Shown here: one piece after another, positions 415 through 30,010 of the stretch
How positions within the stretch are numbered: position 1 is the stretch's first letter
How the letters are laid out: the number at the start of each line of letters is the position of its first letter
DNA from: Haplodiscus bocki
Taxonomy: Eukaryota
Length of the DNA: 64,000 nucleotides
NCBI GenBank assembly: GCA_965655095.1
Contig: OZ296657.1
Location: 27,404,001-27,468,000 of the forward strand
Direction: 5' to 3'
Program-made: the position numbers and the translations under genes
Notes under the pieces: generated by a model
What the model was told of the DNA's origin: nothing
What the model saw: the letters and a program-made list of their open reading frames with translations, nothing else
Database searches by the model: none

Positions 415-859
415 TAGCGACGTTTTCCCAAAAATGTTCAACCCGGGTATTCAGCAGCTGTTAACACACGGGAAGCTAACATGCCAGTTACAAACCAAAC
501 ATTCTTTTTGTTTTAAAAAACAGAAGAAGGTTTTTGGTCCTCATTCAGAATTTAACACGGATTTGGCTAGCTCTCTGACAAACATCTGTTATATAACCAA
601 AGATATGCAATTAAAGAAACAAAACTTGAAAAAGAACACAACATTAAACAAAAAACGCAACGGTAGTTCGATTTTTTTTCGTCAATGGGGCGCAAAAAGG
701 AGTGGTGAAAAATACAGATATATTTGACTAAGAGAGCCAGTATTTTGGATGGAACTTGGTTTTAAAAGAAAAACAAAAGGAAATGGAGTTTTTTGTCCAA
801 TTCGGGATATTATAACAGTTTTTAACCTAACTTTAGTCAATTAGATAATCTTTACCAGT

Positions 860-1300
860 ACTTGTCCATAAAAACCTTGATGGAAGAAACCCACCCCGGT
901 AGCTATGGTGAAATATAGAATTGGGGGAACGTCCTTACTATAAGTTTTGTGTTGTGGACTTACCAGCAACTCGACATGAGGAACAAACTCGCGTTTAAAA
1001 AATTATAGAATTGGAACGCTGTTGATAGAAATCTTAATAGAAAAGATCAAGCCGGTAGTTCTGGGTGATCATGTTTTGGAATACTACAAAAATTCAACCC
1101 TGATTGAAAAAATGTGCGTTTTCTTTTCATCAGAGTCATGCATTCCAATGCCACACAAAAACTGAGCAATGACTCAAACGAAAACGCTTCTGCTAGTGGG
1201 AAACTCACGATTGGGATTTTCAAAGATTTATTTCACCCAGTAATTATGGAGAAACTTCAGTTTAAAGTTCTTTGAAAAAATATTGTAGATAGGAATTTTA
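860..1300 (+). repeat. Degenerate ~175-bp tandem repeat family, short array
   Basis: ACCTTGATGGAAGAAAC..CCGGTAGCTATGG (~875), AAGATCAAGCCGGTAGTT (~1043) and CCAGTAATTATGGAGAAA (~1237) match the core seen in the 39-41 kb and 51-52 kb arrays. Confidence 0.55.
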
Positions 1301-1492
1301 AGAAGTTTTTTCAAACCTTAACGTAAAATGGGTGATAGCTATTTTCAAAGTGCTTCCACAAAAAAACTGATAAATGGCAAACTGATGAAAGTAAAACAGT
1401 TGGTAGTTAATGACAACAATGATTTTTTTGTCGCCAAAATTTGTTATGAATAGCCTTTGGCACTTTAGGCCTCTCGAGTGTTAGGTCCAAGA

Positions 1493-1970
1493 CTAACACT
1501 TGCAATGATTCAGTAAAAGATGTTTCGCCGAGCAGAAAACTAGTAATTGGGACCTGGATGGATGATTTGAAGCTGCCATTCTAATTGAAAATTGAGTTCG
1601 ATTACAACGGCGAACCAATAATAATAAGAAACTTTGGCTTTTTTGAGCTATCATGATCTCAGTGGAAGACACAAACACAACGGTGACTTGCATGAACAAA
1701 TCTTGGCTACCGGAAGCGCGCTGATTGGCACCTTGTTGGACGTGATCGAGCCACTCTTTGTGCAAAAATTGAATTGGATTATATTGTAAAACAACACCAA
1801 AAGAACTTTCGACACTTTTGACCTTTCAGAGTCCCAATTGAAGGCGCAAAACGGGCACAAAAATTGCTCGAAAAAGTTTCAAACTGTTCAAAACTATAAT
1901 TAGGACGTCGATGGAAGTAATCCAGACGAAAGCTATGACGAATGTTGAGTTTTAGTTCGCTAAAAATCAA
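1493..1970 (-). pseudogene. Polinton-like A32/FtsK packaging ATPase remnant
   Basis: Frameshifted pieces 'VAKICSCKS', 'KFLIIIGSPL*SNSI' and 'KHLLLN' loosely follow the Polinton ATPase motifs (LFT.GxHH; IVLFKSPRD..Q; YGYLLID). Lies next to the integrase remnant. Walker A not recognisable. Confidence 0.3.
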
Positions 1971-2164
1971 TTAAGTTAACACTTTTTGGTAATTTTGGCC
2001 CTGCAAATTCTGTTTACAAAACCAAACATACTGAACGTTGAGTTGTAAATGCTTCGAAATTTAAAAACTGCTGCTTGGGATCATGAAAGATGTGATCAAG
2101 CTGCTATTCGAGTCCAAACTTGAGTGTGGATAACGCGCAAAACTAAAAACAACAAATTTTGGCA

Positions 2165-3170
2165 TTTTCGGCTTATGGTAATTCAACAGAAGACGCAAAC
2201 ACGGAGCTGAGTATGAAATAAGAGGTGCTTCTAGATTTTTCAAACTGATCTTTGCGATCTTGGTCGAGGTTCTCCAGTTGGTAAAAATTTCGAGGTTTGA
2301 GTGCAAATAACGGTGAAAGCCATTACAACTAGAAAATTTCACAAAATGGGACTTTCTCGTTTCAGATGCAAGAGACGACTGGAAGTCCTTCAGGAGCCAT
2401 CAGACTTTGATAAAGAAGGTAAAGATCAACCTTATCAAATCAATTCCATAAATTTTTGCTCTGCTCCAAAAGAACACTTCAAAAGACTACCGCTCACTTC
2501 ATGTACAAAATGGAAGCAATTTGAAAAAAAAACAATATCGTCATTAACGAGAATTTTGGAAACATTTGCAGGAGAATTTGAAGCGCAACTTCAAAAGAAT
2601 CACTGATAAGGACAAAAGTGCACAAATACCGCTCACATTCACATTGTAGACTTGCAATGGACACTTGCAATTCAGACTGCATGTCTGCTCTAAAAACGAC
2701 CAATTGACGCAGTCACCGAGCAATGTTTCGCAAAAAATCGAAAAAACTATTGTAGATACTAAGAGATTGCTTTTTCCTTCGTACTTTGGTGCGACAGGAA
2801 AAAACAATATATTTATCACTTTACGGTTAAGCATACCTGTTCTTACCTATTCAAATATTGAATCTGGAACTCAAATGGAAGAATTTCAGTTACGTAACCT
2901 GTTGATCCAGAAGAAAAGTTTTGATATAAGAAACTGACTTGAGCCGTAGAACAGAACTTGACGCAGTAGGCAAAGCTCCTCTTTTGTTTCAGAAGCTATG
3001 AATTTTAAACTAAGCTACGGTGAACGACAGAAACGAGGTGCTTGTCCCAGTTTTCAACAAAAAAAAGCAAACTTGAAGAAAACTTTGCAATCTGAGACAA
3101 AGATTGGAAAGTTTTTGCCAATGTACCAAGATACTACATAAAATACATGGGCAACCTGAAAGCGAGGAAT
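2165..3170 (+). pseudogene. Polinton-type retroviral-like (rve) integrase remnant with C-terminal chromodomain-like piece
   Basis: Colinear fragments: 'SAYGNS', 'TTRKFHKM', 'ETFAGEF' (cf. TDxGxEF), 'SPSNVSQK', 'LRLS...TQMEEFQL' (cf. VRIS..NWTxExF) and 'RYYIKYMG' (cf. YLVKWxG). Interrupted by stops and frameshifts. Confidence 0.55.
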
Positions 3171-4399
3171 CTAAAGAAACATTGAGGGACGCAAAGTGAG
3201 ACAGAACCCAGCAAAAGTTTTTTTGGTGTTGGGACCGGAAGCAATAAATCAAGAAGCCCGATGAGAGTACCGAACTGAACGGAAAAGAAGTGGAGGGTTG
3301 TATCAAACTTTGTACCAGCTGTTACATTCAGAAAAAAATTGTAACAACTGAGTCGGAAAATAAAGTGTGGATGTGGGTAAACCGTAAAAGTTCTGTTAAA
3401 AAATAAAAATTGTAGAACAAGATCGCTAACTCCTCAATTTCAGTTCTGGAGCATTCTTTTCGAAGCCTATAATATCATTCAGATATTAAAAAAAACGTCG
3501 AGACAAACTGGAGAAAAATAATAACACCGATATAGTTTCTGATGTTTCGAAACTGTTTTGATGTTTACGCAGCAGTTTTCAGGACAAATTACGGGTGCCA
3601 GACCATTAGGTATTGATGAAATTCTATGGGGAAATTTTGAAAAAGCATGGCTGCTTTAAAAAAATGGGACCAACTTCTTCCCCTAAAAATTTGTTTTTAT
3701 TTAGAGTTTGGGAGTTTGAAGTAAAGCAGCAGCCCAAAAAATAAATCTTCAATGCAGCGCAATCTTATATGTCAACGTTTGACGTTTGATACAAATTTCT
3801 GCTAGATTGAGTAACGGGACGTCCCGGTGGAGATTATTTGGAGTTACTTAAAAGTGTTGCGATGCATATTGAGGAAACTCTCTCCTAATAACAATTTTTC
3901 ATAATTCTTTCCTTCTTTTTTTCGCAGTTTCTGGCTCCTTCCAGTTTTCTCGTACCGGTACAATTTGCGAGTTTATATATATCTTTTTTTTGTGACGTCG
4001 AACAGGTTCTCACCTAAGCTGTTAAGGGGACGAAAACCTACGTAAATTCATAATTCCTAAGGAACCTCCAAACAATTCTGTAAGAATTTGGAAGAATGGA
4101 ACGTGGTTGAGTACGTTTTAATGTCGCCCTGAAGTTTTTTCTAAATTCAGTTATGATGGACTAAGAGTTCAGGGTCCGAAGTTCCAAGAGAGAAGATGCT
4201 CAACATAAACACTCCAAATTTTTGAACAAATTCGCAAAATGGAGCTTTTCTTTCGGATTTTTTCGAGTTTTCTTGGTTGGACATCAAGTGAAGTTGTTAT
4301 AGACAACAAAATCAGCTGAAACTGAGCAGTAAACGGTTGGGTTAAATATGGTCAAGTCCTCAAAATGGATGTCGTGGGACATCTGCTTCTCTTGCTGTT

Positions 4400-5591
4400 T
4401 GTATCTATACAGAATCCAACACAGAAGTCATTGTGATGCCAGGAGAAAAGATTGCTTAGAATATTTCCCCGGAAAAAACGATGCTGCTGCAAAATCCGCT
4501 CTGCATCAGAACAGCAGACAGGCGCATATCAACTGCAGGTTGACGTTTGTTTCAAATTTGTCAAATACTCTCATAGACCCAATTGAGAGTAGCGCATTTT
4601 CATCAGTATTGACAGTCTTTATTCAAGAAAAGTTAGCTGGCGATGAACCTTCTGGCGTGCCAAGGAAGAGGATCAATCTGGTGGGCTAATGTAACTTTGG
4701 AAAGCCGGATTTGTATCTTTCATCAGATTCATGACCTGTTATATGCTTTCTTGGCTGTCACAAAGAACAGCCCGTCCAGCAATGTCATTCTTTGGAAAAA
4801 GTACCTCGTCCATATTATGTGCTAGTTGACTTGAAGTCAGTGTATGGGTCATCAGGAATCAATTCCATGATATGGTTCTTCAATGAGGTTTGTACAAGAA
4901 AATCCACTTTCCTTGTGAGAACAGAACAGCAGGTTAATTTAATCAACGGGAAAAAAAGTGGAAAATGCAAAAAAACCTGCTTTATGACGGATTGCAGTGC
5001 TTGCTAACAAGTGTTTTTGGGTAACAGTGAACGTCTTGCACTGCCGTTCCTTGTCCCACTTGACAATATGAGCATTGTTAAATTGGATCCTGCTTTGTTC
5101 TGTCTAATGAGGAGTTAAGTCAGTGCGATTTCCATGTCAAGTTTAATGATGAATACCACCACGGAAGTTGAGCTCCTACGAACCGACAAAAATTTCAAAC
5201 TGGAATCACTAGTACTTTCAAGTTCATTGTGCATGGGCCTGGTATGAAGAGAATGGATTAAGTTTCTTTGCTTTTCATTCTGAGAACGTGTCTTTGAAAA
5301 GATCTGAAGTTCTCCCTGAAGGAAATTCTGATTTTGAGCGAGAAAATAAACGGACGTCACAATACTGAACTCCAGGACCTGATTGAACGCCCTATCTTTA
5401 TCATGGGGAACCGTAGCAACGGAAGCAGTGAGCATTTTGCCAACTGAAGCTAATATGTCGTTGTGAGGAAGAATGCCGACCGTTGCATGCGCATGGTCTC
5501 GAAACATGGTAAAAATTTTATTTGTAAAGCTCATCCACGCGGCGAGTGAGGACGAAGAATGACGCCAAAAAATGAAAAATAAAAGCAGCAA
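4400..5591 (-). pseudogene. Polinton/Maverick major capsid protein (PY-type) remnant
   Basis: ORF 5115-5591 has 'VLEFSI...FLQGELQI...NLIHSL' (cf. IEF..L..KI..NNxLHSLF). Downstream are 'KLTCCSVLTRKV...DPYTDFKS' (cf. ASLFVRKV..YP) and 'MRVFDK...CRADFAAA' (cf. LFAFDLT..LExxFAxAL). Confidence 0.55.
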
Positions 5592-5734
5592 TTACAACAT
5601 TTGATAGACTTAGGCAAGACTCTTTCATCATATTCATCATGGGCCGCACAGACAGGCGCATATCGACCAGAGGGCGGTGACGTTTGTTCCGAATTTTCCC
5701 AATTGTCATTTATTCTCAAAAAACTCATTTACAC

Positions 5735-7300
5735 TAGCGTAATTTCATCAGTATTGGTGATGATGAGGAAAGAAGTCGAAAATTAAATCTGTTCCACTTT
5801 GAGGCAGCTGAATGATGAAAGAGGCAGCGAAGACAGCTGAGCTCGCTGCCAATGGCTGAAAAAACGTTTGTGGCCTAAGCAAGGACAAGTTTTCACTGTA
5901 ATTGACTTCACTTGAGCCTTCCCTTGCAGACCTTCAAAATGTCAAAAACAAAAACCAGCAAAGACAACCTTTGCCTGCGAATTAGGACTCTTTCATTCGA
6001 AATGACTTTCATTTTGTCTCTATAACGCTACAACCACGTTGCAGAGTACAAGGAAGGTGACGCTTGTTCCCATCCAATAACGGAGAGGCTTCGAGTTCAT
6101 GAGATATTTCGACGACACAATCAGTGCCTTGAAAGCATCGATGATCACCCGACTGATTTTGTACAAAGCCTGCAGCTACACACCCGCTGTCGTCGTTGAG
6201 TGTGAACCAAGCATAAGCGGTTCCTTGAAAGCCAGAGCCAAATGCCTGTCACGAAACATGATAGAAAAGATACGCTGCCCAGTGAGGACGAAGTGAGGAA
6301 TTTGTGAAAGCGGTTTTTCACTCAAAAAAAGAACCAACCACCAATTTTTTTCGGACTGCACGATCTTCTTACTGAATGAAAGTGACAGCTGCAAACATGT
6401 CTAAGTTTTCATCACCATACATCATGTAAATTGCATTCTGTAAATTACTGCCAAAGTGTTATTCTTCCATGCATTTCCTGTTCCTGGTGTAGTGCTGCTG
6501 AGAATCCAACATTATCAAAATCAGTGTCTTAAACAAAGCGTCTTTCGTCCGCTGGCCCAAGGGAGTTGATCAGAGTTTTTTCCACTAAAAGAGCTATCAA
6601 TACTAAAACTGTTGAGCAATTATGTCAATTTCCAGTGGTCCCCTGACAGGAACCGAGCTTTCGATCCTATTAGGGACAGTGTATACAACACTACAGCCAT
6701 ATTTTTGCCAATGGACAAAGGATGTTTTGTCGTGGATACTGTTTCTGCTAAATTACGATTGGCGGGAGTATTGCACCAAAAACGAGGACGACATAGAAGA
6801 AACATATTTTAGCAGCAAATTTGAGAATTCAAACTTGGGAAAGAAAAAACATCTCTGAAGTTAGAGATGTTTGCTTCTATCACTTTTACTGAAGCAATTC
6901 AATTCATGCCTGGTACCACAACCAATAACCAATCAGAAAATAGAGACTTATTTAGGTTTCGTCCTGGCTGAAAACGCTATCACACAAAAAAGGTTTTTTT
7001 ACGGAAGGTGAGCTTTTGTCAGCCAGTAGGACATGGAAGTTTAACTTTACCTCTGGCATGACAAGCATGGCAATGTTTACGCTTGTTCCTGAGAAACGAG
7101 TACGCATTCTTACGTGCGACATGTTAAAAATCACAAGTGATTGCTTTCGCGCCCGGAAACAAGCCAACAAGGCATTCTAAAGCCCGTAACAAAGATTGAT
7201 TCCAAGTCCAAACCAGCAGCAGTGCGAATCGTACAGTTTGCCTCAATGATTAGTGTAGAATGCCGGAAACGAACGCCTGCAGTATGTTAAGAAGCGTCTG
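5735..7300 (-). pseudogene. Second major-capsid-like (double jelly-roll) remnant, interrupted by an LTR-retroelement fragment
   Basis: Colinear pieces 'LDLESIF', 'MLVMPEVKL' (cf. W.MPxV), 'RHLALAFK' (cf. PRYIIVGFQ), 'DAFKAL..YLMNSKPLRY' (cf. FDH..YVMLNSxRYP) and 'LVFVFDILK...RLK' (cf. LFVFDVSKQxExLK). Confidence 0.4.
6612..6910 (+). mobile_element. Ty3/Gypsy RT-RNase H connection fragment
   Basis: ORF 6612-6812 'FQWSPDRNRAFDPIRDSV...FLPMDKGCFVVDTVSA...AGVLHQ' matches FxW..E..AF..LK..L..P....F.xxTDAS..GAVLxQ. It is followed by 'KLEMFA' (cf. xxELLA). Confidence 0.7.
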
Positions 7301-7999
7301 AATTGTGACCAATTTTTCCAATTTGAAATTGGGAATAGGAGTTTATTGATGATTTACTGGTGGCCCAACTGTTCTGAACCCTTGTTGTACCCAGGGAAAC
7401 TTTAATTAACAACCCACAAGCGTTTGGAGAACATTAGTTTCCTATCATCTCACACAAATTGAAAAGAAAATCAGGCAAAGTTTATTCTGTCGATGAGCTT
7501 TCCAAAACTCAACGGACCTAGTCAATCATACAAACCTTCGGCCGCAAAAAGAACTGCGATACTAAAACAAAACTCACAGGATCCTCAGTGTCAATCCACC
7601 AGTTCAATAAAAATTTTCAAGCTCTATCTTGTACGCCAGACGAGTACCTGGCACATGCCACAGGTAAACAGTTAAACCACTCACTCGCGCAGCATAGAAC
7701 AACTTCGATCTTCTACGCCTTCGAAGCAACTCAGTTCTTAGCAGGCAGCATTCACTCAAAATTCAGCACTGCATAGTTTAAAACAGTTGTAACGCAAGAC
7801 TCAGTGATTAATTGCATTTACCACTTTTTTCTTTTTTCAATGGAAATCCATGATGAGTAGCGAAAAATCATAGATCAAAATTATTTAAAAATGAGCTCAA
7901 AAGAGTTTTATTTTTGTCATATTAAGGTGGCTTATATTTTGGTACACTTTTAAATACGGTTGGAAAAAAAATTTCCGAGGTAGCGAATAAAACAGCTGT

Positions 8000-8400
8000 T
8001 CACAAAGAATGCAATGAGTGTAATTTATTTTTCAGCCAACAACAGAAATGCTTTCAAGTGGAATCAGTGCACTGGTGTTTGATTTCTTATGATTACATTG
8101 GTTGAAAAGCAGTCAATTGGAAACACACACGGATAACTTAAAATGAGATCGATGCAAAAAGTGACAAAAAAGGCCAGCAGAAAACTTTTATTTAGCTCAA
8201 GAATCCAGATTTTAGTCGCCATACTCGACTAAACAGTTGAAACTATTTATCCGTTATCAAAAGAGCTCAGCGAATTCTGTGGTGATGTGTTCTTGAAACA
8301 TCAGTTCACGTACTCCATTGACGGAGGCGTTTATCTGCGATGCTCATGCGGTTCATGAACAAGGACTGTTGGTAATGGCAGTAAAAGTATCACGTGCTTT
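8000..8400 (-). pseudogene. Adenain-like cysteine (maturation) protease remnant
   Basis: 'ELFDN' (cf. YFDSxG) and 'FC/GLFCHFLH' across a 1-nt frameshift (cf. CGxYCxxF), within the Polinton gene cluster. Confidence 0.35.
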
Positions 8401-8451
8401 TATCAAGAAATATGGTAAATTGTGTGAAAACACAATAAAAAAAACTGAGGA

Positions 8452-8730
8452 ATGAAGTACATAGGCGCTAAGGTGCTTAGTTCAAGGCTTGCGAAGGCAA
8501 TCAACCTCTTGATTACAACGCTGACTACATGTTTATGCAAGGCCAGAGAGCATGTACTGAACTCCGGAGAGATAAGGCAGAGAACAACCATGAGATAACA
8601 GCGGAGGTTCAAGATAACTATTATAACTTTAAACGAAATTTAGCTGAGAAAGAGAAAATTGTAATCCCAAAAGTCAACGGAAGTCAGCCAGTGTTTGGCT
8701 AAAGCCGTATCAGAGCAGCAAGCTCCCATA
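8452..8730 (+). pseudogene. Small basic Polinton-associated ORF remnant (putative core protein)
   Basis: ATG at 8452; 'TTCLCKAREHVLNSGEI...*QRRFK..ILAEKEK' resembles the CICECxxNxLxGNI...L.R.K..LR.LA pattern recalled for small Maverick ORFs. One internal stop. Confidence 0.3.
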
Positions 8731-8799
8731 AATTGAAAAGTAGGGTGTCAAGTGAAGAAATACAAAACTGGGAAAAAATTCTCGAAGAAACCGTGTTTT

Positions 8800-9650
8800 C
8801 TTGCTAATTTATGTCAGAAAACCCGATTAGAATATATTTCGCGCAAAACAATATATCACATGAACAGTGAGGAAACCCTGAGGGTTTTGTGGACACACAC
8901 ACATTTGAGGCAATTTTCCAGGTGATGAGGGTCTTAGTAGACTATCTCAAGGGGTAAAACTATCGAAAAACATGCTCTACATCTATAAAGTAGCTTGGTC
9001 AGACCACTTATCTGCAACCCAGCATACCCTGATAAGCTCTCATCTGTTTCTTCAGGCAATACAATTGGCGCAACAAAACCCAGTTTACTTTTTACTGATG
9101 GAACAACAGGATAAACAATCTTTGGACAAGTCTTAAGCAAACCTTTTTACAACAGGGTAAAAAGTCTCTCAAATTGTCAAAAATTCTGGAAAAAACTTAC
9201 GTCTTGGCACTTTTTTGCAAGAAATTCATGAGAAAAGTTCGGTTGGAGTCGAAACTTGCATCAAAACCAACTGTTGTACGCATTGCGTAATCTGCTTTTC
9301 AATTCGATTGATACGCATCATTTTGAGGTACGCTGAACAAGCTAAATTTTGGATAATATACAAAATTTTTTGAAAACCAGAAAAAGATCGGACAAAATCT
9401 TGTGGAAGATTAAAAAACTTTTCGTTTGATTTTTAAATGCAACTTACTCTTGACATTCATTGCCTGACGACCATTGAGAAGCCATTCTTGGGATAATAGG
9501 CCAAAGAAGTGCAACAAATTAACATTTGCCCTCTGAAAAAGCCTGGTTTTTCAATTGCTTTCGCCAAAAACTCGCGGGCGAAAAGCTTTCGTCCTTCAGA
9601 AACTTCGGCCCCGGTCAATCAGGATCTTGACAACACAGCTAAGTAATAAG
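8800..9650 (-). pseudogene. Possible penton/minor-capsid remnant
   Basis: 'SEGKC*FVALLWP' (cf. LxGxWEVALxEIxYP) and 'GYAGLQISGLTKLLYRC' (cf. YPxDL..G...LYVYC). Weak match. Confidence 0.25.
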
Positions 9651-10899
9651 CAAACGGATCCTACCAATGCCTTCCGAGAAAATGATCGTCAAAGTTAAGG
9701 AGCGCAGTGGGCAATGGGGAATGTAGAATTTGCTTCAAAATCATTCAGAAATATCAGCTTTTTTTTGACGAAAATTGGCGAGAATTTTTTTGGGCAAAAT
9801 TTTTAAAACACCCCGCTCAACCGAATGGTGATCCATTAATTAGTGCAAAACTATTAGCATTTCCAAGCGCCTACTGTAAAAACAGGAGTAAAAAAATAGC
9901 CTTTATCCTCTGAAAAATTGGAAAATTGTAATTTTTCGTAAATAACTAGCCAAAAAACTTTGGGCCGCTGCAAATTTGGAATATGATAGATCGTGAACAC
10001 GTCGTAGTATTTTTACACAAATCGGATAAGAGATGAAATGCAAAGGGATGTCACGTCACGGAGGGGAAAGAATGAAATAATTTTGACGTGTCCTTGTGCG
10101 AATAGGCTTCACTCCGCTCGTCTAAAGCTGTTTAAAGAAAAAATACGAATATATATCAAGAAGGAAGAGCTTAAAGCTAAGACATCTGCAGAGCGAGAAC
10201 GTCAACGGCTATCCCGTAGATTGAAGCACCCAATGTTGAAGACAAGAAACTCAAAGAGGCAAGAGGACTGACTATTACTCAAATTGTTTACTATATTTTT
10301 ATGCTTGCTGTAAAAATTGGTTGACTGACGAAGAAAACGATTTAAATGAGTGCTCCTTTTTGTTCAAAAAAAGGTGTTTTTCAGAAACCTTGAAACTTGT
10401 GAAGGAAACTTTCGAACAATAACACGGCAAGAAGACGTTTCCCCTGTTAAGGTGAGAAACAAAACTATTGGTAACTCATGCAACAACTTTTTCTTCTGAG
10501 TGAAGTAAAATTCGTTTCTCGAAGCCAGTATTGAGCATGTGAGTAGTGAGTAAACAGGTGACATACTTGGGCTTCTGTCCCCTAGGATGCTGGGGGTTGA
10601 TCTCACGATACTGACTCATGAGACAGAGTGGTAGAAGTGTTTTTGCTTCTCGTTAAATATCACACCTCTCACTCACGCCTGATCAGGTGCGTGAGCTGGT
10701 GTGTAAAACAAAATTTTTAAGAAAAAGACCTTCTGATTTTCCTAAACAGAGCTCCTTATATCGTCAGTTCATAAGTTTGGCTAAAAGGCGGAAAATTCAC
10801 ACACTAGAGTTCTCTGAACATTGCAACAAAAATAAAAATCCCATGAAAAGTTCGCGCTCATCAAAGCTAAGGTTTTTTGTGATAAGTTGAAGAAACAAA

Positions 10900-12750
10900 C
10901 GAAACGAGTGAAGCACTTCAGTATTTGGATATAGTGGATCCACTAAGAGTAGGTGAATTTCTTTTCAATTCTAGTGAAGTGATTGTGATTTTTCTGTGGA
11001 TGCAAAAGTATTCAATGATATCACCAAACAAATATCTGACCGTCCATCAAAAATGCTGCCCCTGAAAGGGTTTATAACCTTAAAGCACTGCAAAAGTGAA
11101 AAATGTTTTCTCACTGATTTGATGAATTTTGTTCAAAATCATTCTCATACAAAACCACCAACAGAATCTCTCAAACTCAACTGCTTTACCATCTTTAATT
11201 AGTGAAAAGTAGGCAGAGTAATAGCTGCAGAACAACTGTCCGAGCTAAAGGGTTCAAATCGGTGAAAACTTGGCACCGATGTTAAAATTCAGTTGTTGTA
11301 GTAAGACAAGCATCTGTTTGACACTTTTGAAAGAAAAAGATGAAGCTTTAGAACAACCACTGGTATTCTCAGATGAATACCTTACAGAAAAACATGAGAT
11401 AAAATTCATCAAAATGTTACCGAGTATTATACATCCGATCTCAGTTACTCAATGATAAATAGAAAAATATCGCTGATGTTCGTTACACGACGAAATTATC
11501 ATTTGATGAAAAGATACTCATATTTTGCTCTAGGTATAGCTGCCCAACGGGAAGAAAACTTATTCCTAACGTAATCTTCTGCTATCGTTAACTAAGAAGA
11601 AATCGACAACAAAATCGAAAAAATTTGATAGCTGCAATTTTTCTTTTAATAAGATCAATCTACCGCGGTGATGTTTACAAAAAATAGAGGTAACCAGAAA
11701 CTTCATCAATAAAAACCATTTTGATTAACAAAGCTGCTTCTCTACTGAGCGTTGGAATAACATCCTCCTCTGTAACACATCTAACACACATTGCAAGTTG
11801 TAGCGGTTTGATGGTACGTCCAACATTATCCGGAGTTGAATGCCCAACAGCACTCAGTATTAAAAAAGTGAACAAATTACTTAAAAGGAAAGGAATACTC
11901 TTTCTGAACAAACTTTCTTTGACAGTGAACACTTCACATGACTTCCGAAATTTTTTATTTTAAGTTCATATGAACTTACGGAGTACGGAAAATTTACCAC
12001 TTCTTCCATGAAATGTAAAATAGAACAATCTATGTGGAAGAAGACTTATACGAATACTTTTTTTAAAAAAAATTTACCAAAAGGTAAAATATCCAATAAA
12101 CTAATGCGATGTTTGTCAAAAAAGTTTTTACTGATAAAATTAGTTAGTTTCAAAGTGGAACTCAGAGATTAAAAGTAGTCCACAGAAACAACGGATGGCA
12201 AATCAGTTTGCAAACCTGGAAAATAGCCATATATAGTGACTTGAAATCGAGGACCAAGTGAAAAACTAAGTGGAGATCCGTGTTGTAAGGAGTTTCAAAA
12301 AAGTATAACTTTGACTGAAGACACCAAATCTGTTTTACGGGAAACATGAATTATTTGAAACTTCTCCGTAAAACAAGCGTTGAATGACAAACTCGAAGAA
12401 ATGCTTTAAAAAATAACCCAGGTGTTTTCACCAGAAACAGAACTCGAAGAAAGAAGGTTTCGTGGCTCTCATTTTGAAAAATTGACATTGTACTTCCGTC
12501 GGAAAAATGATACAGCACCAACTCGTGAAGATCTAGTACACCTGGTTGACGATATCTTGGTGGAGAGATCTGGATTTGTTTTTAAAGGAAAAGTAAAGAC
12601 AGATGTATAAATTTTTGGGACAAAAATTACACAAAAGGCTTCGTTTGTTGAATTTAAAAAAACTAAACTTTTAGAACCATCACCAGTGTTATGAACGAGG
12701 ATTGATTTTGCTTTTTCCTTCCTCAAATTAATACCCCAGAAAAAGACGGC
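10900..12750 (+). pseudogene. Protein-primed DNA polymerase B remnant (element A)
   Basis: Frameshifted 'FK/MN/YGKF' at ~11960-11995 (motif B, KxxxNSxYGKF), 'TLTEDTKSVL' at ~12310 (motif C, YxDTDS) and 'SGFVFKG' (cf. GxFKxE), in the correct order and with plausible spacing. Confidence 0.45.
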
Positions 12751-14549
12751 CTACCTTTCTGTTCTAAAAAAGATACCTTTTCTCTTTGCAAGTATAGAAA
12801 TTACGCATGCACAAAAAAAGTCTCCTAGAACGCAAAAATTTATCCCAAATTTAACGTTTTAGAAATTGAAGATGATTGTACTGTTTTATTAAAAAGTACG
12901 ATCGGGAGCAAAAACTCTAAGGCTGAGCAAAAATCAGGATTGCTTCAAATCACTATAACACCCGCTTTAGCCGAAACATTCACAGATGAAACATGTCAGC
13001 TCAAACAGTTTAAGTTCTTCCTTTGAGACAGCAATCACACAAAAAAATCAACTGAAAGATTGTATAAGACAAAATTGAGAAAAATTTTGAAACAACAAAA
13101 CCACTGTGAAGTTTAATGATTTTAGATTGGAAGTAGATTTTTACAATTGGATCGTAAGCAGATTTTCTATGTTAATATGAAATAATTTCTTCTGCTGCAA
13201 CTGGAAAATTCTGAAGAAAGACTATTCGAAACAAAACCAATAGCAAACGGCTGTTCTTTGTTTGCCTCAGACAGAGTTTATTCACACGGAAGTACTTCGG
13301 ACAAAAAGTTTTCAAACAATTGTCTTTCGGGGTAAAAATTTTTGCTGTAGAACCGTAAGCGCTCACTTTAGAGAAAGAGGTTTCTAACTATGGCAAATTA
13401 GATTAACCTGTCGAAGTAACTCGCACCCTTTAGGCGTAATTCCTTGGAACCACCTCATTTTGGATATATGGTGGTGATTTCTGTAATGAAATCAAAGTCG
13501 AAGGATATGCAAATGCAGGAACGATAAATGAAGGATTCATAGCGGAAGGCACTTCCCAGTAGAATAGTAGGGAAAACTACATATCACAACCATCTGAGAG
13601 GTGTTCACGGCGGTGCAGCTTTTGTTGAATGCACTCCTGATTCTGAAGAAGTTCTCAACTTTTATTGCTATGTTGTTCGATAACTTCCTATTTTTCGACT
13701 ATGATTTCCTTCTGAAGGATTTAATTTCTCCATCCCCTGAATAACGATCTCTTGAACCTCATGAAAGTCCCAAAACATTGGAATCTAAGGTTAGTCTTGG
13801 AGTAGTTTTATTGTATTTTTTATCTAATTTTAGACTTTACCCTCATAAAAAATCTTCTTCAAAATATCTTCACCGCAACTTCCTTTTTAAGCGTTTTGTC
13901 AGGGAAATTCCTCTTCTGGACAAAATTTGACTTCCCCCTATGAAAAAATTTTGAAAAAAAAATACAGTGAAACCTCTATCCTGGAAAGTGGAAGAATCTT
14001 GGTCAACCTTGAATCAAGATTTTCGGAAAAGCAAGATCTAATGCGAACAAATTTAGCAGTTCAGCAGAAAGTACCCAAAATGGTCAAAGAGTTAAACTTG
14101 CTCTGTTTAAAAAAGGATATCTTACAGTTTGCTGAAACAGTTGAATCGTTCGCAGAAAGGACCAAAATTTTTTTATAAAAACAACCCCCCTTTACTCTTC
14201 TATTTTGCTAGGTTATGCAAGAAGATCAGCTTTTCAAAACTCAAGTCCATTCAGTTTTTCTAAAAACGAAGATTGTTCTTTCTATTCGCTGTTACAGAGA
14301 ATGATAAGAGGGCATTTCAAGTGTCAGGACGGATCGCCGCTCAGATAAAAACTCCACAGGATTTTTTCCAAAAATATCTTCTAAAGTAAGGATTGATATA
14401 GGGAATCTTTCTGTAAAAATTTGTGTTTGGATGCCATAGTATGTATTAATAGGCAATGAGTTAGTATCTTCCCAGCGGTGACTTTACGAAATTAGATCTC
14501 TAGGCGGTATATTCGGAAGAAAGTCTTCTGGGAGGAAAAAGAAGCTAAA

Positions 14550-15250
14550 TCCAAGCTCTACGACAACAGTGAGTTGGTGTTTTTTGTAAATTAAGATCTA
14601 GAATACCGAGCCCAGAAAAAGATAACGAATGTTTTATCCTTTTGCCATGGATCCAAAACGAACTGAGTTGATCAATTCAGTAATTTTATGAATCAGGTTA
14701 AGCAAACCGAAACTAAACCCACAGAAGAATTCCTTTTTGAATTTGAGAACAAGATTAAACATCTCACACGTTACGGAAACCTCAATCGCTGTGTGGAACT
14801 TGGATGCACGTCTCAAACCTGTATGCTTTTGCCACCCTCACCCATTGTCCACTGTTAACAATTATAATGGTTCCAATAGAATGACGATAAGACCTTCAAA
14901 AACAGATTTCGAAAAGAATTCTATAACTTGGTGCACAATGATTCGTTTCGAAGAAACAACTAAGAAAGTAAGAAAAAAATGTAATCTGTACTTTATCCCC
15001 CCTACAGATGTATGCATAAGGCTAGAAGTCTGCTTTAAAATAGGCTTTGATGGAACTATTGTTTGTAATGAAGATTTTGATTTCGATGGAAATTCTCGGG
15101 AGAAAAAAAATAGTTGGACCTAATTACTTAGACTAAGCAGTTCTAGAACTCACAAACTTCATAAAGTTTTTTGTTTTGGGAAAAATTCATCCCCAATTTC
15201 AAGAACAAAAAATAGGATTACATCCCATGCGTAAAGATCCAATTATACTC
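14550..15250 (+). pseudogene. Second packaging-ATPase remnant (element B)
   Basis: ORF 14737-15123 contains 'MIRFEETTKKVRKKCNLYFIP...KIGFDG..NEDF' (cf. QSYF.xPKxIRxNxN..ILF...DI...DM..EF). Confidence 0.3.
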
Positions 15251-16059
15251 AGCGTCCACTTAGAAATTTTAACCATGACATGGATAATTTTGAAGACTTC
15301 GATTTTCAGGTAATAAATACGAAGCGCAACTTGTAAACACCAGTCAAAATTTTTTAGAAGTAAGATTAAAACTGAAGCAAAACATGTTCTGACTGATGTA
15401 GAGTGGCCGTTTTGAGAACAAATTTTTCTCCCAATTCAAACAAAGAAATCCCGAAATCAGAAAAAAAACAAGTTTTCAACAACTCCACTTTTTGCCAAGA
15501 ATTTCAAAAGTCTTTTTGAGAAACCCAAGCAGCAAGTCTTTTCTCAGAAGATAAAGAAGCAACCCGTGGCTGTTCAAGTTAAGCCAACGTTGGCCTTGAA
15601 TCATTTTGTAGAAACCCTCCGGCTGAGCAACATCTTAAGTACCAAGGTAAACTTTGGGAGACCCATCTCCGAAAGGAACACTGTAGAGTCAAGCTTTTTA
15701 AATAATTTCGGAAAGATTAGTGAGTTAATTACTCAAATTCAGTCAGGAATTTTATTTCAACAATATTGCACATTTCAAAAAAACATGTCTCAGCATTTAA
15801 CACAAAGAAAAAGAAGTTTTTATAGTTGAAAGTTAAAAAGAGGTCTTTGAAACAATTATCAAATTCTTTTTTACACTAAAGAAAATATCATCAAGTAGGG
15901 ATTTTTCTAAAACCCTTGATTTTTTACAAAAAATTTTTCTTCAGAAAGAATTTTTTAGACTGTTTGTTTCTTCAGAAAACACATTCGAAATTTTACAGAA
16001 GGAAAAAATTGTTTCGAATTCATGAGTGAGTTTTTTTTCATTTGTGTTTGTATCTGAGG

Positions 16060-16950
16060 GAGGGAGTCAGGTTCAGTCAAGTGGCCGAACACCACAAACA
16101 ATGACACTAAAAAGTAGGTCTGATAGGTCCAGTGCGAGAGCTATTTAGTAAATTGAGAAAATATGAATTCCAAAATAATGCGTGGTGAGAATATAGGATC
16201 CTTCTGATATGATATGTCAAAACCATAAAAATCGTATTTGATTCTGAATGACAGAATTTCAGAAGAAGTTTTTAGTGTGTACAAACGAAAAAGACGTCTT
16301 CACTTGAGAGTCAGCTATATGATAAGCATCCCTATCGTAGTTACAAAAAAAATTAAATAATGTGATCACTGTCACATCCTATTCTACACACCCCACCACA
16401 CACAGTGTGTTGACAAAAAAGCCTGTTGTGTTTGAGATTCACATCTATTTTTCTTCAAAAATCCAACCGCAAACAAGGAGAAAAGCGAATCCGAGGCGTT
16501 GACACCTTCAAAGACTCAGGTCTTTTTCCAATCACTTATTCCTACAATACTGTACTTTTATAAGAAGTTAACTCGGTTCCAGTTTTGATAAGCATCTGAT
16601 CAGCAACTACTTGTTGATTTTCCAAAGTGGGCATGAAATGAGTTAGAAAACAGGATGCATTTTCGGACAGTTTTTCAACATTTGCAATTGCTATGAGAAC
16701 AACATCATTGTTGAAAGTAGCATCATCATAAACTGATCTGTGAAAGGAATTTTTCGTTTTCAATTTTGTGGGGTGACGTTTCCAGCGTTTTGTCTGTTTG
16801 AGCAACAAACCTGGACATCAGTGCTCTTGTTCCAGCACACCTTGTTAGTGTTTCACGCCTTCGGCTTACGATGTGTAGAATTGTCTACAAGTAACTTTTT
16901 CACAAGTGATATGGCATTGCCATTAGCTCGCAGAGTACATGGTCAATTAA
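16060..16950 (-). pseudogene. Major-capsid-like (double jelly-roll) remnant (element B)
   Basis: 'SLVKKLLVDN', 'HFMPTLENQ' (cf. xPxxIPSxETQ) and the open stretch 'IKYDFYGFDISYQKDPIFSPRIILEFIFS' (~16240-16155; cf. YxLYVFDIxYQK....PIxVEFxF). Confidence 0.5.
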
Positions 16951-18547
16951 ATTAAATAAATTTAAGAACATTAAAATCAACAAGCAAAGAACTTCATCGT
17001 ATACTAAAATAAGTGTTCTCGCTTGGTACATTATATTGGAAATTTGTGTTTGCAGCGTTTAATGTAGCCAAAAAACAAGGTGATTTTCTTGAAAAGTTTA
17101 AATTTCAGTTGGCCTTTGATGAATTGTTTTTGCTTTTTCATAAAACATATTTACGAAAAATTTTTGCAAATAGAAAGACAAAATTCGGAAACTGTTTAAA
17201 AAGTATTTTTTTCTCGAAGTGTTTCTCATAAAGATGGACCCTTCACCTTTATCTCCTTCTGATAAATTTGAGAGGCTGCTACTAGAAGTAACATAAGGCT
17301 CTGGAAAATCAGAAGGGGAAAGCTTTACAAAAACTCAAACAACGAGATTTCTAGGGCAAACGAACCCTGTTCTAAGTTTAGTGTTGTTCTTCCGTTATAA
17401 TTGGGAACTGAAATTGGATAAAGGCAATCACTAGTCCGAATTAATAGAAAACTGCCTATAACAAAACTGAAAGTAATAATTCTTTCCCAACAGATGTGGA
17501 TTCACAGATATTGGCTAGAACATTCGACACTGAATCAAGATCCAACTATACATAAAACAAAAGGCAATCCATATATGCAAAACCGGACGACGCATTCATG
17601 TCAGTATGAAACAGCATGCACTGAGAGTAATACTTCTTCCAATGACGAAAATATTCAAAATGCATTTGATCTGAACAAAATAGAATGAACACGATATTAA
17701 GTCAGTTTGCAGAATTATAAACGCTTAAACGTCATCCTTTCAATAAAAAAATTTCTTGACATAGAGCTACCATCAGGAGTATACGAGTTTAACAGACCTA
17801 TATCTAACAAATGAAAATTTCGAGGCAGAGTTTTTTGAAAAGCTCAAAAAGTTTTTGTTAAAACGCTCCTATCCAGATTTGTATCCAAGCGGAAACAACT
17901 CCTTTGCGTTCTGTCGTAGCAACAACAAAGTTGGGTCTTTTCCGTTTCTTCCACCCCAGCGGATTATTTCCCCCCCCCCCAGTCGAAGCTGTAGCTGCTG
18001 CTAGCAGTGTACAAGTATTTATTCACTGAATACGTCTTTCGCGAGTCAGTAGACAGTGCACACAATTCACAAATCTCAAGTACCTTCCAAGAAGCTGACT
18101 GCTTGCTGAAGATAGTTAAAATAAACAAATAGGTATTTGCAATAACTCTATTACGCAGAAACTTGAACCATACTGCTCAGACACCCGGAAAAACTGCTAG
18201 CAGCAGAAATGGGCAGAATAGGCAGAATTGAGGTTCAAAAGCAGAAAACGATTTTTTAGAGCAGAATAGCGGCAGAATTGAAATTTTCCAGATTATGTTT
18301 GCATGTTATAGAAAATTTTAATTAAAATACGATGTATGCGCATCAAAATCAAGATTGGAGCTTGTTGACTAAGCGGTAAGTACTTAGGCAAACACTTCAG
18401 GCGTAGGCAGTACACAGAACAGGTCCTGCTCTGCAATTTACATGCACGATATTCTTGCTATTGAATTATTCCTGCAATCCTGCTCTTTATTATTTCCTAT
18501 TCCTTTCCTACCAGTGTTAAAATATTTCTATCCTCTCGTATTGAAAA

Positions 18548-18799
18548 ATGCCCAAGGTTACCGGGAATATTACAGTTTCATCTCGAGTAAACGAGCACCC
18601 GACTATATTTTACGAAGACGATGGCCTGCTTTTCTGTAAGTTCTGCTGTCATTCGGTCGATTTGAAATCTTCCACCATCAAAGATCATTTGCAGATTAAA
18701 AGTCACAAGAACAAGCGCGAAGTACAAGAAGCTACGTCGGCACCAGTTTTGAGGCAGGTGACCCTTACGACGGTGCAGAAAAGCCAGGAAAGCCGTTAG
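18548..18799 (+). pseudogene. hAT transposase N-terminus with CGGBP1/BED-like C2H2 zinc finger
   Basis: MPKV...RVNEHP..FYEDDGLLFCKFCCHSVD..SSTIKDHLQIKSHK contains CxxC...H....H. The frame ends at the deletion junction. Confidence 0.8.
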
Positions 18800-18800
18800 C

Positions 18801-19310
18801 CGAATCGAGGCCATATTATCCGAAGCCAATTTAGCAAATCGGAGTCTGGCAGATTGCCTAATTATATATCAAAGTGCGTTTAAAATAGCGTCTGAGAAAT
18901 TTAATAAGCATGTTGACAACCAGAAACCAGCGCTAAACTTCTTCAAAAGCGCAAGAATTTTTGAAATTCGCCAGAAAGCAAGTCTCAGTCGGAATATTGT
19001 TGACTATCTTAATATTCCTGGGTTTTCTTCCAATATCGAGTTCCTGAACGAGTGGGTTATTTATATGAATGCAGTATACCCCTTAGAAAACTTTGAAGTT
19101 GACAAATTTTGGGAGGGGAAGAAGAATGAACTGCCACTGATGTGGAAGGCTTCACGAAGCCTGTGGGCACCCGCCTCCGCAGCCGACGTGGAGAGAAGTT
19201 TTAGTATTTTAACAATCCTTGATTCACCAAAACGAGCAAATTTATCTAAAGAAGCCTTGAAAAACCTTCTTTATTGTTATTTTAACAGCGATTTTATAAA
19301 ATTTGAATGA
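18801..19310 (+). pseudogene. hAT transposase C-terminus (dimerisation domain)
   Basis: Frame open from at least 18801 to the TGA ending at 19310: '...FFKSARIF...FWEGKKNELP...APASAADVERSFS...KRANLS'. This is the hATC signature. Confidence 0.85.
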
Positions 19311-21202
19311 AGTTTTCAATTAAACTTGCAATTTACCCACGTTTTGCCTAAAGAGCAGAAATAAGCGGAATTGAGGAATTTAACGAGCAGAATTTAATTT
19401 TTTTGGCGGCAGAAATTCCGGGTGTCTGATACTGCTCAGCTGAGCATATCAGCTAGGAGAGGAATAATAATTTTGTCAGTAGGGCTGGGGGGGGGGGGGA
19501 GAAACGGAAAAGACCCACAAAGTTAATAGCAATCATTTCTATTCTGAATCAGTTGCTGAAACTCAATGAGAACAATTGCACCGCAGGAGAACACACACCA
19601 GATAAAAATATCACTGTTACAACCCTAAACAAAGGAGATCTGGAAAGCGACTTTATGGCTGGATGGAGTGTCATTGATGTAAGGGAATAAGTTTTACTTA
19701 GTTTCTTTTTTGGTTGCTGCCAAATTGGTCCAAGAATCTAAAAGGACCAATACACCCAAACTGGAAACAGTTCAACCTTATCCTGAAGATGATGATCATG
19801 TTTCTGTTGAATTCACCTAGAAAACTCTTTCATTTACTGTTCAATTCAAAAGAACATGTAACTTTTGACTTGAAAAAAGTCATAGTCTTTGAATACTGTC
19901 AATGAATTTTCTTCTGAAGAAAATCAAATTTATTCGTAGGTGTAAGCTAAGCTTGTCTGAGCCTCGTTGAAACTAAAATGAAAGACTTTCTTTTCTGTTT
20001 TCAAAAACTGGACACATAATTTTTCGTGTTGGTGCAGAACAAAAATCTGCAAAGTCAAATGCAACCAACAATTCTTCTAATACTGAACAAAATGTTAAGG
20101 AAAAACTTTCACAGAAGGAAAGGTACACTCTAATAGTGGTAAAAATCCGACATCGTTCCTGATGAAACAAGACAAGCAAAATGGATTTTGTGATGCTGGA
20201 AGAACTCTAGAACTGACTGCAAACCTGCGAACGGTCGCAGCAACAAAAACATCACCGTTGATTTGCTTCAACACCATATTTGCACCCGAAGTTATTAAAA
20301 TTCAGCTGGAAAGCAAAGTCTGCACTTCAAAACAGTTCTCTGAATTCTCTTTCAACAAGAGTTCCTTTTGAAAAGTTTTGAATTCCTTGATATTTTTTTC
20401 TTTCCACCCCTTTTGTTAAATTTTTTCGTTTTAAAAACCTGAAAAAAAGAAACTGCGTTGTTTGTTATTGAGTCAGCCATTGTTTAGGAGAAACTAAACA
20501 ATATTCTTCCAGGCGAAGGAACTTAGGAGACAGAAAAAAGTGAAGGAAATATTGGGAACACAAGATTTTCACTGAAATAGGAAAAAAGTATTCGAACTTG
20601 TGACAAATTTATAATCAGAGGCAGGGAGAAATTATCCACCAAAAACAATTCCACTCAGACCAACCTATAGCAGTACAACTTGAAGAACAGAAATGAATCT
20701 AGTTTGTAGAAAGTTTAAGGCAAGCTTTTCAAGATTTTGATTGGGTGAGCAAAGACAATGAAAAACTTTTTTAAGTTTTTTATGGCCTAGTTAGCACATA
20801 TAACTGATCGGTTGTTAAAATATAGGATTTGTTGCACAAGAACTCAGTACACCAAGTCAATTTCAAAATACGACCTCTGAGTTCGGAAACTCAATCATTT
20901 TTATCCTTTATTTCCAGAAAACTCGCAAACACTTGAAATAGAAAGCCTACCAATGGAGTCTCTAAACGCCGGTATTTAAAATTAGTCGATTGACCCCGAT
21001 TTGAAGACACTTTTGACTATTTCAGAAACCGTAAGAAAAGAATTGGAAAACTAGTGTCCAGGTCACTGTTTCGTAGATGATAAGAAATACGATATTAACG
21101 CACAAGGAACGGACAAATCATTTTCGCGCAAAAACTTATTTCTGCTGACCAAAAATGAAAAACACAGAGAGAAACAAGGAATACTGGCACTAACATAAAA
21201 GT

Positions 21203-21490
21203 TTGTTTCTAAATGTCCAACTAGAGACCAAATTTCATCTCGAACAAAACGCGGCTGGCCAAATCTTGGCTGCTCAAGAACTGGGTTGTCAGAATGGATC
21301 GTCGTTCTGTTTAATTCTATCTAATCCCAAAGATCGTGTTGATCGTCTACAGTTGTTGTTTCAGGAACTGTTGGTTGGCATTGATATCTAACTGCAGAAA
21401 AAAGAGGTAACGGAAACTGCTTCAAAAAAGGTGGAGCACGAAAGTAACATGGAAGAACACCACAAAGATTTGTTTCACAAATTGATCGCC
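21203..21490 (+). pseudogene. Conserved Polinton ORF C-terminus (DPNELxDRLxLL...AGN family)
   Basis: 'LSNPKDRVDRLQLLFQELLVGIDI*LQKKEVTETASKKVEHES' reads through one stop and matches the recalled DPNELxDRLxLLxxExxAGN...EIxxIxxxLxE pattern. Confidence 0.6.
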
Positions 21491-25500: not shown

Positions 25501-26299
25501 CTTTCACGAAGATATCAACATCTTTGTGTGACAAATAAACTTCTTTTGAGAACAATTTTTTCCGTGACATTCCAAGTTTTTGCTTCTCTTATCTCTCTTT
25601 TTTTAATCATGAACTTCATTAAAACGTTGAAAATCAATTTTTGGGCTTGGCGTCATTACCAGATTGTAGTAACGACAATTAGTTCAATTGGTTCCTGCTG
25701 TTCAAACATCTTCGATAGCTAATCATCCGCAGACCCTTGGCATAGAAGATAATGAAACTGAATTGTAAAATTTTGATTCTTTTGTCATCTTACTGCAGCC
25801 GGAACTGAAGGAAATCGACTCATACCTGGAAAAAGGTGTTCGAACATAGAGAAACGCCCGTCACAATTCCCCTGAAATTTCACGAGAAAAACGAAAACGG
25901 CGTAGGAAAATCTAACCACTTACCACTCCCTCCCCTCTCTGGCAACAACGAGTTGATTCTGATCAAATGTACGTAGCCGGAATACGACTTCTTCCAAAAA
26001 CGTGAAAGTGCTCTCAAAATTTTCCACCAATCTCAAAAAAACGAAAATTTCACAGCTTCTCCAAAAGCAAACTTCCAACCGAGGTGTCAAACCCAAGAAA
26101 AATTTTCCTGGCATCCCATTGGAGGAAAAAGCAAACTGCTGCGTTCGTGGAGGGAACCATTCGATGATCAACGATATAAAGCGAAAAAGATGGTACTTTT
26201 CTCTAGGATGATAAGTACATTTTGAACCTGTTAAGCAACTCGTCAATGGTCATTCAGACTGGAAATTCGAGAGAACTCTCCACGAAGGCAAAAGTCATT

Positions 26300-29895: not shown

Positions 29896-30010
29896 TATTC
29901 AAAGACTTTTCACCAACAACCCGAAAATGTTCATAGACTTTTTCGCCTGCAAATTTGTCTTAGCCGCAAATCATCAACTATATTCCGGAAATATTCAAAG
30001 ACTTTTTGGG

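What the first reader, a model, noticed from the sequence alone, without database searches (positions are those of the whole stretch)
1493..12750. Fossil Polinton-like virus with a near-complete virion module, hidden beneath the ORF track
Seen: reading through stops and frameshifts gives colinear motif fragments for ATPase(-), integrase(+), two capsid-like genes(-), protease(-), a small basic ORF(+), a penton-like gene(-) and PolB(+). Known: this is the Polinton/Maverick gene set (pPolB, rve integrase, A32-like ATPase, double jelly-roll MCP, penton, adenain). Inference: one old endogenised virus about 11-12 kb long. No terminal inverted repeats were found.
Basis: partly seen in the sequence, partly recalled or inferred. 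Interest (0 to 1): 0.7.

Follow-up and report, generated by a model that had tools for sequence, protein, structure and literature searches.

The report
Dead Polinton virus with nested transposons
A decayed virus-like jumping element (a Polinton) does lie here, but mostly to the right of where it was first placed and with two other transposons inserted in it; it is likely an ordinary old fossil in a genome full of such elements.

Summary
A Polinton fossil is real, but not where or as described. Frameshift-aware alignment to intact Polintons of the same genome places pPolB at 12,494-15,607 (+), major capsid 17,098-16,153 (-), penton, A32 ATPase, rve integrase and adenain-like protease out to 25.1 kb, between probable inverted arms at ~7.9-8.2 and ~25.3-25.6 kb. 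Four other fossil loci are partly colinear with it. Of that, 8,459-10,126 is a high-copy non-coding repeat (Helentron-like, inferred), not PolB. The 'ATPase' (650-2,800) is a dispersed tandem-repeat family. The 'integrase, two capsids, protease' block (2.8-7.8 kb) matched none of four Polinton families above null; it has internal duplications and a weak retroelement RNase H hit, and stays unresolved. The fossil is a far-diverged relative (pPolB 26% identical) of an AT-rich family whose genes start at TAAATG; 4 of 17 fossil gene starts keep that motif (chance 3.6% each). Verdict: new member of a known kind; interest 0.3.

The parts
7887..8193 (+). Probable left inverted arm of the Polinton fossil (true end not defined)
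   Evidence: Inverted match to 25,261-25,559, 188/314 columns; score 34 vs 0 of 1,286 genomic null segments (max 24) with gap -3/-1, but 2 of 1,286 and 10-18 of 1,286 with stricter gaps
8459..10126 (-). Nested high-copy non-coding repeat, 1.67 kb, Helentron/HINE-like (inferred); not PolB
   Evidence: A/T-run flanks without duplication; terminal hairpin in copy L057 z -2.8, decayed in the window copy
10333..11570 (+). Left-arm accessory gene region of the fossil, unnamed
   Evidence: Colinear DNA matches to sibling fossils L083, L131/L132, L134-L136
11575..11882 (+). Broken homolog of the 177-aa accessory gene of the AT-rich family (group A)
   Evidence: Score 64 vs null 45/49; same gene at same place in four siblings, scores 60-156
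12494..15607 (+). Broken protein-primed DNA polymerase B (pPolB); N-terminal end not located
   Evidence: 260/990 identical to L023 pPolB (PF03175, E 1e-19); 22 frameshifts, 22 stops; score 350 vs null 56/49
16153..17098 (-). Broken double jelly-roll major capsid protein
   Evidence: 93/309 identical to L023 MCP (PF21738, E 2e-10); score 137 vs null 40/46; 4 frameshifts, 5 stops
17234..19844 (+). Broken penton (minor capsid), split by the hAT insertion: N part 17,234-17,623, C part 19,583-19,844
   Evidence: Scores 53 (N part, near null) and 105 (C part, null 48/50); the intact group-A homolog folds as a penton
17933..19516 (+). Nested hAT transposon with 8-bp target-site duplication (17,925-17,932 and 19,517-19,524)
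   Evidence: Inverted arms; PF05699 E 3e-6; duplication read from sequence; depth to 87,000
20117..21481 (+). Broken homologs of the group-A 132-aa (20,117-20,296) and 283-aa (20,458-21,481) accessory genes
   Evidence: Scores 63 and 70 vs null 45-50
21569..21796 (-). Broken A32-like packaging ATPase, C-terminal part matched
   Evidence: 28/76 identical, score 120 vs null 45/45; intact homolog PF04665 E 2e-6
23822..24274 (+). Broken rve integrase
   Evidence: 46/144 identical, score 87 vs null 46/49; intact homolog PF00665 E 4e-13
24743..25129 (-). Broken adenain-like protease
   Evidence: 38/127 identical, score 93 vs null 41/44; family profile hits adenovirus protease 1avp at E 2e-6
25261..25630 (-). 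Probable right inverted arm
   Evidence: Matches the window's left arm and, inverted, the left end of sibling L083 (89/140, score 30)
650..2800 (+).
   Evidence: similar units at 39.5-41 and 51.3-52.3 kb
2800..7800 (.). Outside the element: single-copy, decayed, coding-like block of unresolved origin, with a direct duplication (4.5 vs 5.7 kb) and an inverted one (6,310-6,580 vs 6,670-6,900)
   Evidence: no match to sibling fossils
6627..6805 (+). Weak match to the RT connection/RNase H region of LTR retroelements
   Evidence: PF17919 E 0.0035, 17.8 bits, below cut-off 29.8, 1 of 22 ORFs; 4 of 5 PDB rows are retroviral RT, E 0.31-0.34

Best explanation
Between about 7.8 and 25.6 kb lie the broken polymerase, capsid, penton, ATPase, integrase and protease genes of one Polinton, likely a single old integrated virus genome of about 14.5 kb, now interrupted by a hAT transposon and a likely Helentron-type repeat. 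Shown: the six core genes, their order, their breaks, the two nested repeats, single copy state, colinear sibling fossils. Inferred from established Polinton biology: the element was packaged in a double jelly-roll capsid, copied by protein-primed synthesis and inserted by its rve integrase. Inferred from the breaks in every gene: it then decayed neutrally and does nothing today. The stretch to its left (0.65-7.8 kb) is likely unrelated repeat debris: a tandem-repeat family and a decayed block that may include LTR retroelement pol pieces.
For: Nine group-A proteins hit 11.6-25.1 kb above reversed-sequence nulls, the six core ones at 87-350 vs null 40-56; profiles repeat this. Intact homologs are identified by Pfam, PDB and fold. 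Sibling C2 (L083/L084) has the same order 177-POL-MCP-penton-283 and L131 likewise. Inverted arms bracket the genes. Depth ~25-70 outside the nested repeats in two samples. No sibling extends into 2.8-7.8 kb.
Against: The arms are significant only with indel-tolerant scoring (9 of 1,010 null segments tie or beat them), may be paralogous small genes, and no target-site duplication was found. 21.8-23.8 kb and 10.1-11.5 kb have no named gene. The fossil could be two abutting fragments. For 2.8-7.8 kb, absence of a match is weak: Pfam, which also misses the proven fossil, and phmmer have little power on frameshifted DNA.
Confidence: 0.85

Rival explanations
1. First reader's model, restricted to 2.8-7.8 kb: a second, older and more divergent Polinton with integrase (+) and duplicated capsid genes (-) lies next to the proven fossil.
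For: Two stop-poor minus-strand frames with shared motifs. HHalign of the 4.4-5.6 kb frame to group B/D capsids aligns 102 columns at a fitting position, E 0.16. With relaxed gaps, integrase profiles peak on + at 3.2 kb (1.5-2.5% of 202 null bins) and capsid profiles on - at 4.2 and 6.1 kb. Several short motifs resemble Maverick capsid motifs as I recall them (recalled, no call).
Against: None of this passes a null: HHalign probability 0.4% against E 0.0015 for the true capsid control; nearly all 12 profiles peak in the same places whatever the gene; no hit; no polymerase or ATPase is left for it, since those stretches are other repeats.
Confidence: 0.25
2. 2.8-7.8 kb is made of decayed LTR-retrotransposon pol fragments in both orientations.
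For: RNase H/connection match at 6,627-6,805 in Pfam (repeated) and PDB; that stretch has an inverted paralog (score 82 vs null max 53); Gypsy RT profile 37-46 near 6.8-7.0 kb vs null max 39.
Against: All hits are below curated cut-offs; Gypsy integrase and RNase H profiles from this genome give little or nothing; HHalign to integrases E 0.26-0.33; no LTR pair seen.
Confidence: 0.35
3. One element of 11-12 kb spans 1,493-12,750 exactly as first described.
For: The span does end inside the real pPolB and includes real Polinton accessory genes.
Against: Its ATPase and most of its PolB are shown to be other repeats; the element's left arm lies at ~7.9 kb.
Confidence: 0.03

Closest known systems
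Polintons/Mavericks (adintoviruses of Starrett et al., PMC8502044, passages read; definition as in Jeong et al., 10.1101/2023.08.22.554363, passages read)
   Same: pPolB, rve integrase, packaging ATPase, major and minor capsid, adenain-like protease; 13-25 kb with inverted repeats; degraded germline relics are described, including one in the human genome.
   Different: Every gene is broken; target-site duplication not found; Alpha/Beta or pPolB1/pPolB2 class not tested.
AT-rich Polinton family of this genome ('group A', my label; loci L022/L023, L028/L029, L030/L031)
   Same: Closest intact relatives; shares all six core genes and three accessory genes; TAAATG-type gene starts partly kept.
   Different: Only 26-37% amino-acid identity; different gene order (POL and MCP convergent, integrase and protease at the far end); one clear penton where group A has two in tandem; 33-35% GC against 25-28%.
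HINE / DINE-1 non-autonomous Helentrons (Thomas et al., PMC4067079, passages read), for the 8,459-10,126 repeat
   Same: No coding capacity, defined ends, insertion in T-rich sites without duplication, hairpin near one end.
   Different: A 12-15 bp subterminal inverted repeat was not evident; autonomous partner not searched.

Membership tests
Polinton/Maverick (7.8-25.6 kb element) | Protein-primed PolB | tested here: met
   260/990 identical, score 350 vs 56
Polinton/Maverick (7.8-25.6 kb element) | Retroviral-type (rve) integrase | tested here: met
   score 87 vs 49
Polinton/Maverick (7.8-25.6 kb element) | A32-like packaging ATPase | tested here: met
   score 120 vs 45; only the C-terminal 76 residues align, Walker motifs not recovered
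Polinton/Maverick (7.8-25.6 kb element) | Double jelly-roll major capsid protein | tested here: met
Polinton/Maverick (7.8-25.6 kb element) | Single jelly-roll penton | tested here: met
   Fossil matches group-A 356/364-aa proteins; model of the intact protein (mean pLDDT 55) matches PBCV-1 chain 6ncl_a6 Z 11.8, rmsd 2.7 over 119 and mavirus penton Z 10.3, rmsd 11.5 over 229, and viral minor capsids at E 1e-7
Polinton/Maverick (7.8-25.6 kb element) | Adenain-like maturation protease | tested here: met
Polinton/Maverick (7.8-25.6 kb element) | Terminal inverted repeats of 100-1,500 bp | tested here: inconclusive
   ~300-bp inverted match at 60%; significance depends on gap costs; sibling end supports it
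Polinton/Maverick (7.8-25.6 kb element) | 5-8 bp target-site duplication | not tested
   Exact ends could not be defined
   Stretch is a tandem-repeat family; ATPase profiles at null
   No score above null with four in-genome families; a fifth family is not excluded
Non-autonomous Helentron (8,459-10,126) | No coding capacity, T-rich insertion site, no duplication | tested here: met
Non-autonomous Helentron (8,459-10,126) | Subterminal inverted repeats and 3' hairpin | tested here: inconclusive
   Hairpin clear in 1 of 4 ends folded; long subterminal repeat not evident
hAT transposon (17,933-19,516) | Terminal inverted repeats, 8-bp duplication, hAT dimerisation domain | tested here: met

The most novel reading that the evidence does not exclude
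The fossil records an extinct sister branch of a Polinton lineage whose genes start at TAAATG/TAAATATG, the poxvirus late-promoter signal (recalled; also earlier finding e1-8580207). The motif heads 13 of 13 group-A and 7 of 11 group-A2 genes but 0 of 10 group-B genes, and survives at 4 of 17 fossil gene starts. Dependence on the transcription machinery of a poxvirus-like helper would then be an ancient, lineage-wide trait, and this host would have been invaded in repeated waves by a 'poxvirus virophage' whose helper has not been seen.
Probability: 0.3. Interest if true: 0.6.

Novelty: new member of a known kind. Interest (0 to 1): 0.3.

Why it matters
As a single fossil it matters little: degraded Polintons in animal germlines are in print (PMC8502044), and this genome holds very many (10,963 first-look pPolB candidates) in at least four families. 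Two things are of some use. It shows an old, rearranged branch of the AT-rich family and suggests that family's TAAATG gene starts are old, which bears on the idea that some animal Polintons parasitise a poxvirus-like helper. It also shows how motif reading through stops can assemble a plausible virus out of unrelated repeats.

Tried and rejected
Pfam on six frames of 1.2-13.5 kb: nothing relevant; uninformative, since it also misses the proven fossil. phmmer of one minus frame (4.4-6.8 kb) against 1.84 billion representatives: 0 hits. Homolog search with another frame: 308 candidates, 0 at E<=10. ESM Atlas on the 158-aa ORF: best 0.81, no family. PDB with three minus frames of 2.8-7.9 kb: 0. 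PHROGs on 21 ORFs: nothing useful. IMG/VR scan with group-B capsid: 434 pattern matches, none confirmed. Own-genome searches for copies of 2.2-8.45, 4.3-6.5 and 12.8-17.3 kb found only the window; these need near-exact seeds. One search used the wrong frame; one search had a masking error, redone; one search used gap costs too lax to separate signal. Homolog searches listed only close copies (best 120 of 3,211 and 428). No RNA holder listed. No empty-site allele among the 15 joints shown of 176. I first read 640-1,460 as a pPolB C-terminus and a DTDS at ~10.6 kb as its motif C; both rejected. A weak protease score at 12,553-12,680 lies inside pPolB and was rejected. Paper searches: 'polinton + poxvirus + TAAAT + promoter' gave 1 paper (PMC6211774, listing only); 'polinton + acoel' 4 unrelated listings (a guess at the host group, not established); two searches gave none. 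No supplements were read; those of PMC8502044 hold protein sets that could resolve 2.8-7.8 kb.
Full report
Setting. The window is G000:C10:27,404,001-27,468,000 of a 1.5-Gb eukaryotic genome. Exon-like fragments resembling acid sphingomyelinase at 42-46 and 59 kb (name recalled) and earlier scan notes point to an animal; I did not place the host further. The genome is full of Polintons: PF03175 gave 10,963 first-look candidates and 98 matches from the 91 scored, many in frames of 1,100-1,335 aa; PF04665 gave 5,173 candidates and 150 matches of 150 scored. Fetched copies fall into four families (my labels): A and A2 (AT-rich), B and D (about 40% GC).

Method. No ORF over 160 aa lies in 1.5-12.75 kb, and Pfam sees neither that span nor the fossil proven below. 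I therefore wrote a frameshift-tolerant protein-to-DNA local aligner, with reversed sequence and other genomic stretches as nulls, and ran intact natural proteins and profiles over the window.

Where the Polinton is. Group-A proteins hit a colinear set to the right of the reported span: pPolB 12,494-15,607 (+), 260/990 identical, 22 frameshifts and 22 stops, score 350 against 56 and 49; major capsid 17,098-16,153 (-), 137 vs 40/46; penton 19,583-19,844 (+), 105 vs 48/50, with a weaker N part at 17,234-17,623; ATPase 21,796-21,569 (-), 120 vs 45; integrase 23,822-24,274 (+), 87 vs 46/49; protease 25,129-24,743 (-), 93 vs 41/44; and three accessory genes at 63-70. The intact queries are what I call them: PF03175, PF21738, PF04665, PF00665, adenovirus protease at E 2e-6, and a penton fold (model pLDDT 55; PBCV-1 chain Z 11.8, mavirus penton Z 10.3, viral minor capsids E 1e-7).

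Ends and siblings. 7,887-8,193 matches 25,261-25,559 inverted. Against 1,286 genomic segments it scores 34 with none above 24 when gaps are cheap, but 2 and 10-18 segments reach it with stricter gaps, and 9 of 1,010 larger segments did; the arms are probable, not proven. A sibling fossil on C2 has the same gene order and its left end matches the window's right arm inverted (89/140). Three more loci share the 10.3-12.6 kb region or the gene order. Sibling DNA identity is 58-61% in four local alignments. Outside its nested repeats the element is single copy and present in both samples laid. Length about 17.8 kb, about 14.5 kb without the insertions.

Nested elements. 8,459-10,126 is a 1.67-kb repeat: all 51 rows from 38 scored candidates (of 3,931) map to it, mostly end to end at 69-73%; 10 copies share both ends and sit in A/T runs without duplication; none of 12 copies fetched has a long ORF in it. 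These features fit non-autonomous Helentrons (PMC4067079, passages), though the long subterminal repeat was not evident. 17,933-19,516 is a hAT element with an 8-bp duplication, inserted in the penton gene.

650-2,800 matches 10 other decayed loci as a run of ~150-nt units on the + strand, with similar units at 39.5-41 and 51.3-52.3 kb; it is not an ATPase. 8.46-10.13 kb is the repeat above. 10.3-12.75 kb is real Polinton: accessory genes and the start of pPolB. 2.8-7.8 kb is single copy, modestly poor in stops (5-10 per 300 codons in the best frame at 4.2-6.9 kb; background median 11) and holds a direct duplication and an inverted one (score 82 vs null max 53). It matched nothing clearly above null: 14 group-B proteins, about 105 ORFs, 36 profiles (one non-core gene scored 48 vs 38), group-D capsid, new group-A2 and B ORFs, 32 profiles, 378 ORFs (best 60, null max 58), and none of the sibling fossils. 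For a retroelement origin: PF17919 at E 0.0035 in 1 of 22 ORFs and retroviral RT in 4 of 5 PDB rows at E 0.3; in-genome Gypsy profiles were marginal. I leave this block unresolved, about 0.35 retroelement, 0.25 older Polinton, the rest other.

How it worked. Shown: gene content, order, breaks, nesting, copy number. From established knowledge (10.1101/2023.08.22.554363 and PMC8502044, passages): such elements copy themselves by protein-primed synthesis, integrate with the rve integrase and can be packaged in double jelly-roll capsids with penton, ATPase and protease. Inferred: one genome integrated long ago, lost all reading frames by neutral decay, and was later hit by two transposons. It has no evident present function; expression was not testable.

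Gene starts. An earlier scan note (e1-8580207) reported poxvirus-style promoters in a Polinton family of this genome. I checked the motif: TAAATG heads 13 of 13 group-A, 7 of 11 group-A2 and 0 of 10 group-B ORFs. In the window and five sibling stretches an exact TAAATG or TAAATATG lies within 36 nt of 4 of 17 predicted starts (window capsid and integrase among them), against 3.6% at 3,000 random places; 5 further genes were left out because their N-ends did not align, one gene is counted twice, and two siblings may be nearer to group A. By my arithmetic P is about 0.003-0.01. That TAAAT(G) is the poxvirus late signal is recalled; the one paper search on it gave a single listing on yeast plasmids. 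The helper reading is inference.

Verdict. Observation partly confirmed, interpretation partly supported. The element is a Polinton by six of six core genes, with probable inverted repeats: a new, old member of a known kind. Interest 0.3.

Noticed in passing
L036:6304-9999 and L035:2-1039 (about 8.5-13 kb before the window start): A further decayed Polinton (group D) with a frameshifted pPolB and accessory ORFs, one EGF-like by recall, lies just upstream of the window.
   Followed up: partly
window 650-2800, 39,500-41,000, 51,300-52,300: Dispersed family of ~150-nt tandem units that translate to a recurring hydrophobic/acidic motif; no Pfam match for one natural ORF. Nature unknown.
   Followed up: partly
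L014/L015 (C4:88.369-88.388 Mb): Two near-identical group-A pPolB genes face each other as a large inverted duplication without capsid genes between them, next to an HSP90-like gene (name recalled).
   Followed up: no
L019:8839-9978: A Fic-domain gene (PF02661 E 1e-14, DUF4172 E 2e-21) lies at the right end of a group-B Polinton, just beyond the short inverted arm.
   Followed up: no
L022:3708-5979: Group-A Polintons carry two tandem penton paralogs (43% identical) with a large helical insertion in the jelly roll.
   Followed up: partly
L019 and L023 pPolB: Both group-A and group-B pPolBs carry a weak Endonuclease VII/HNH-like match (PF02945, E 1e-4 to 1.5e-3); remnants align in the fossil.
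   Followed up: no
window 42,418-46,024 and 59,216-59,683 (-): Exon-like ORFs resembling acid sphingomyelinase with a saposin domain (recalled), probably the host gene beside the fossil.
   Followed up: no
window 29,288-30,165: Tandem repeats with 13-, 59- and 370-nt periods.
   Followed up: no
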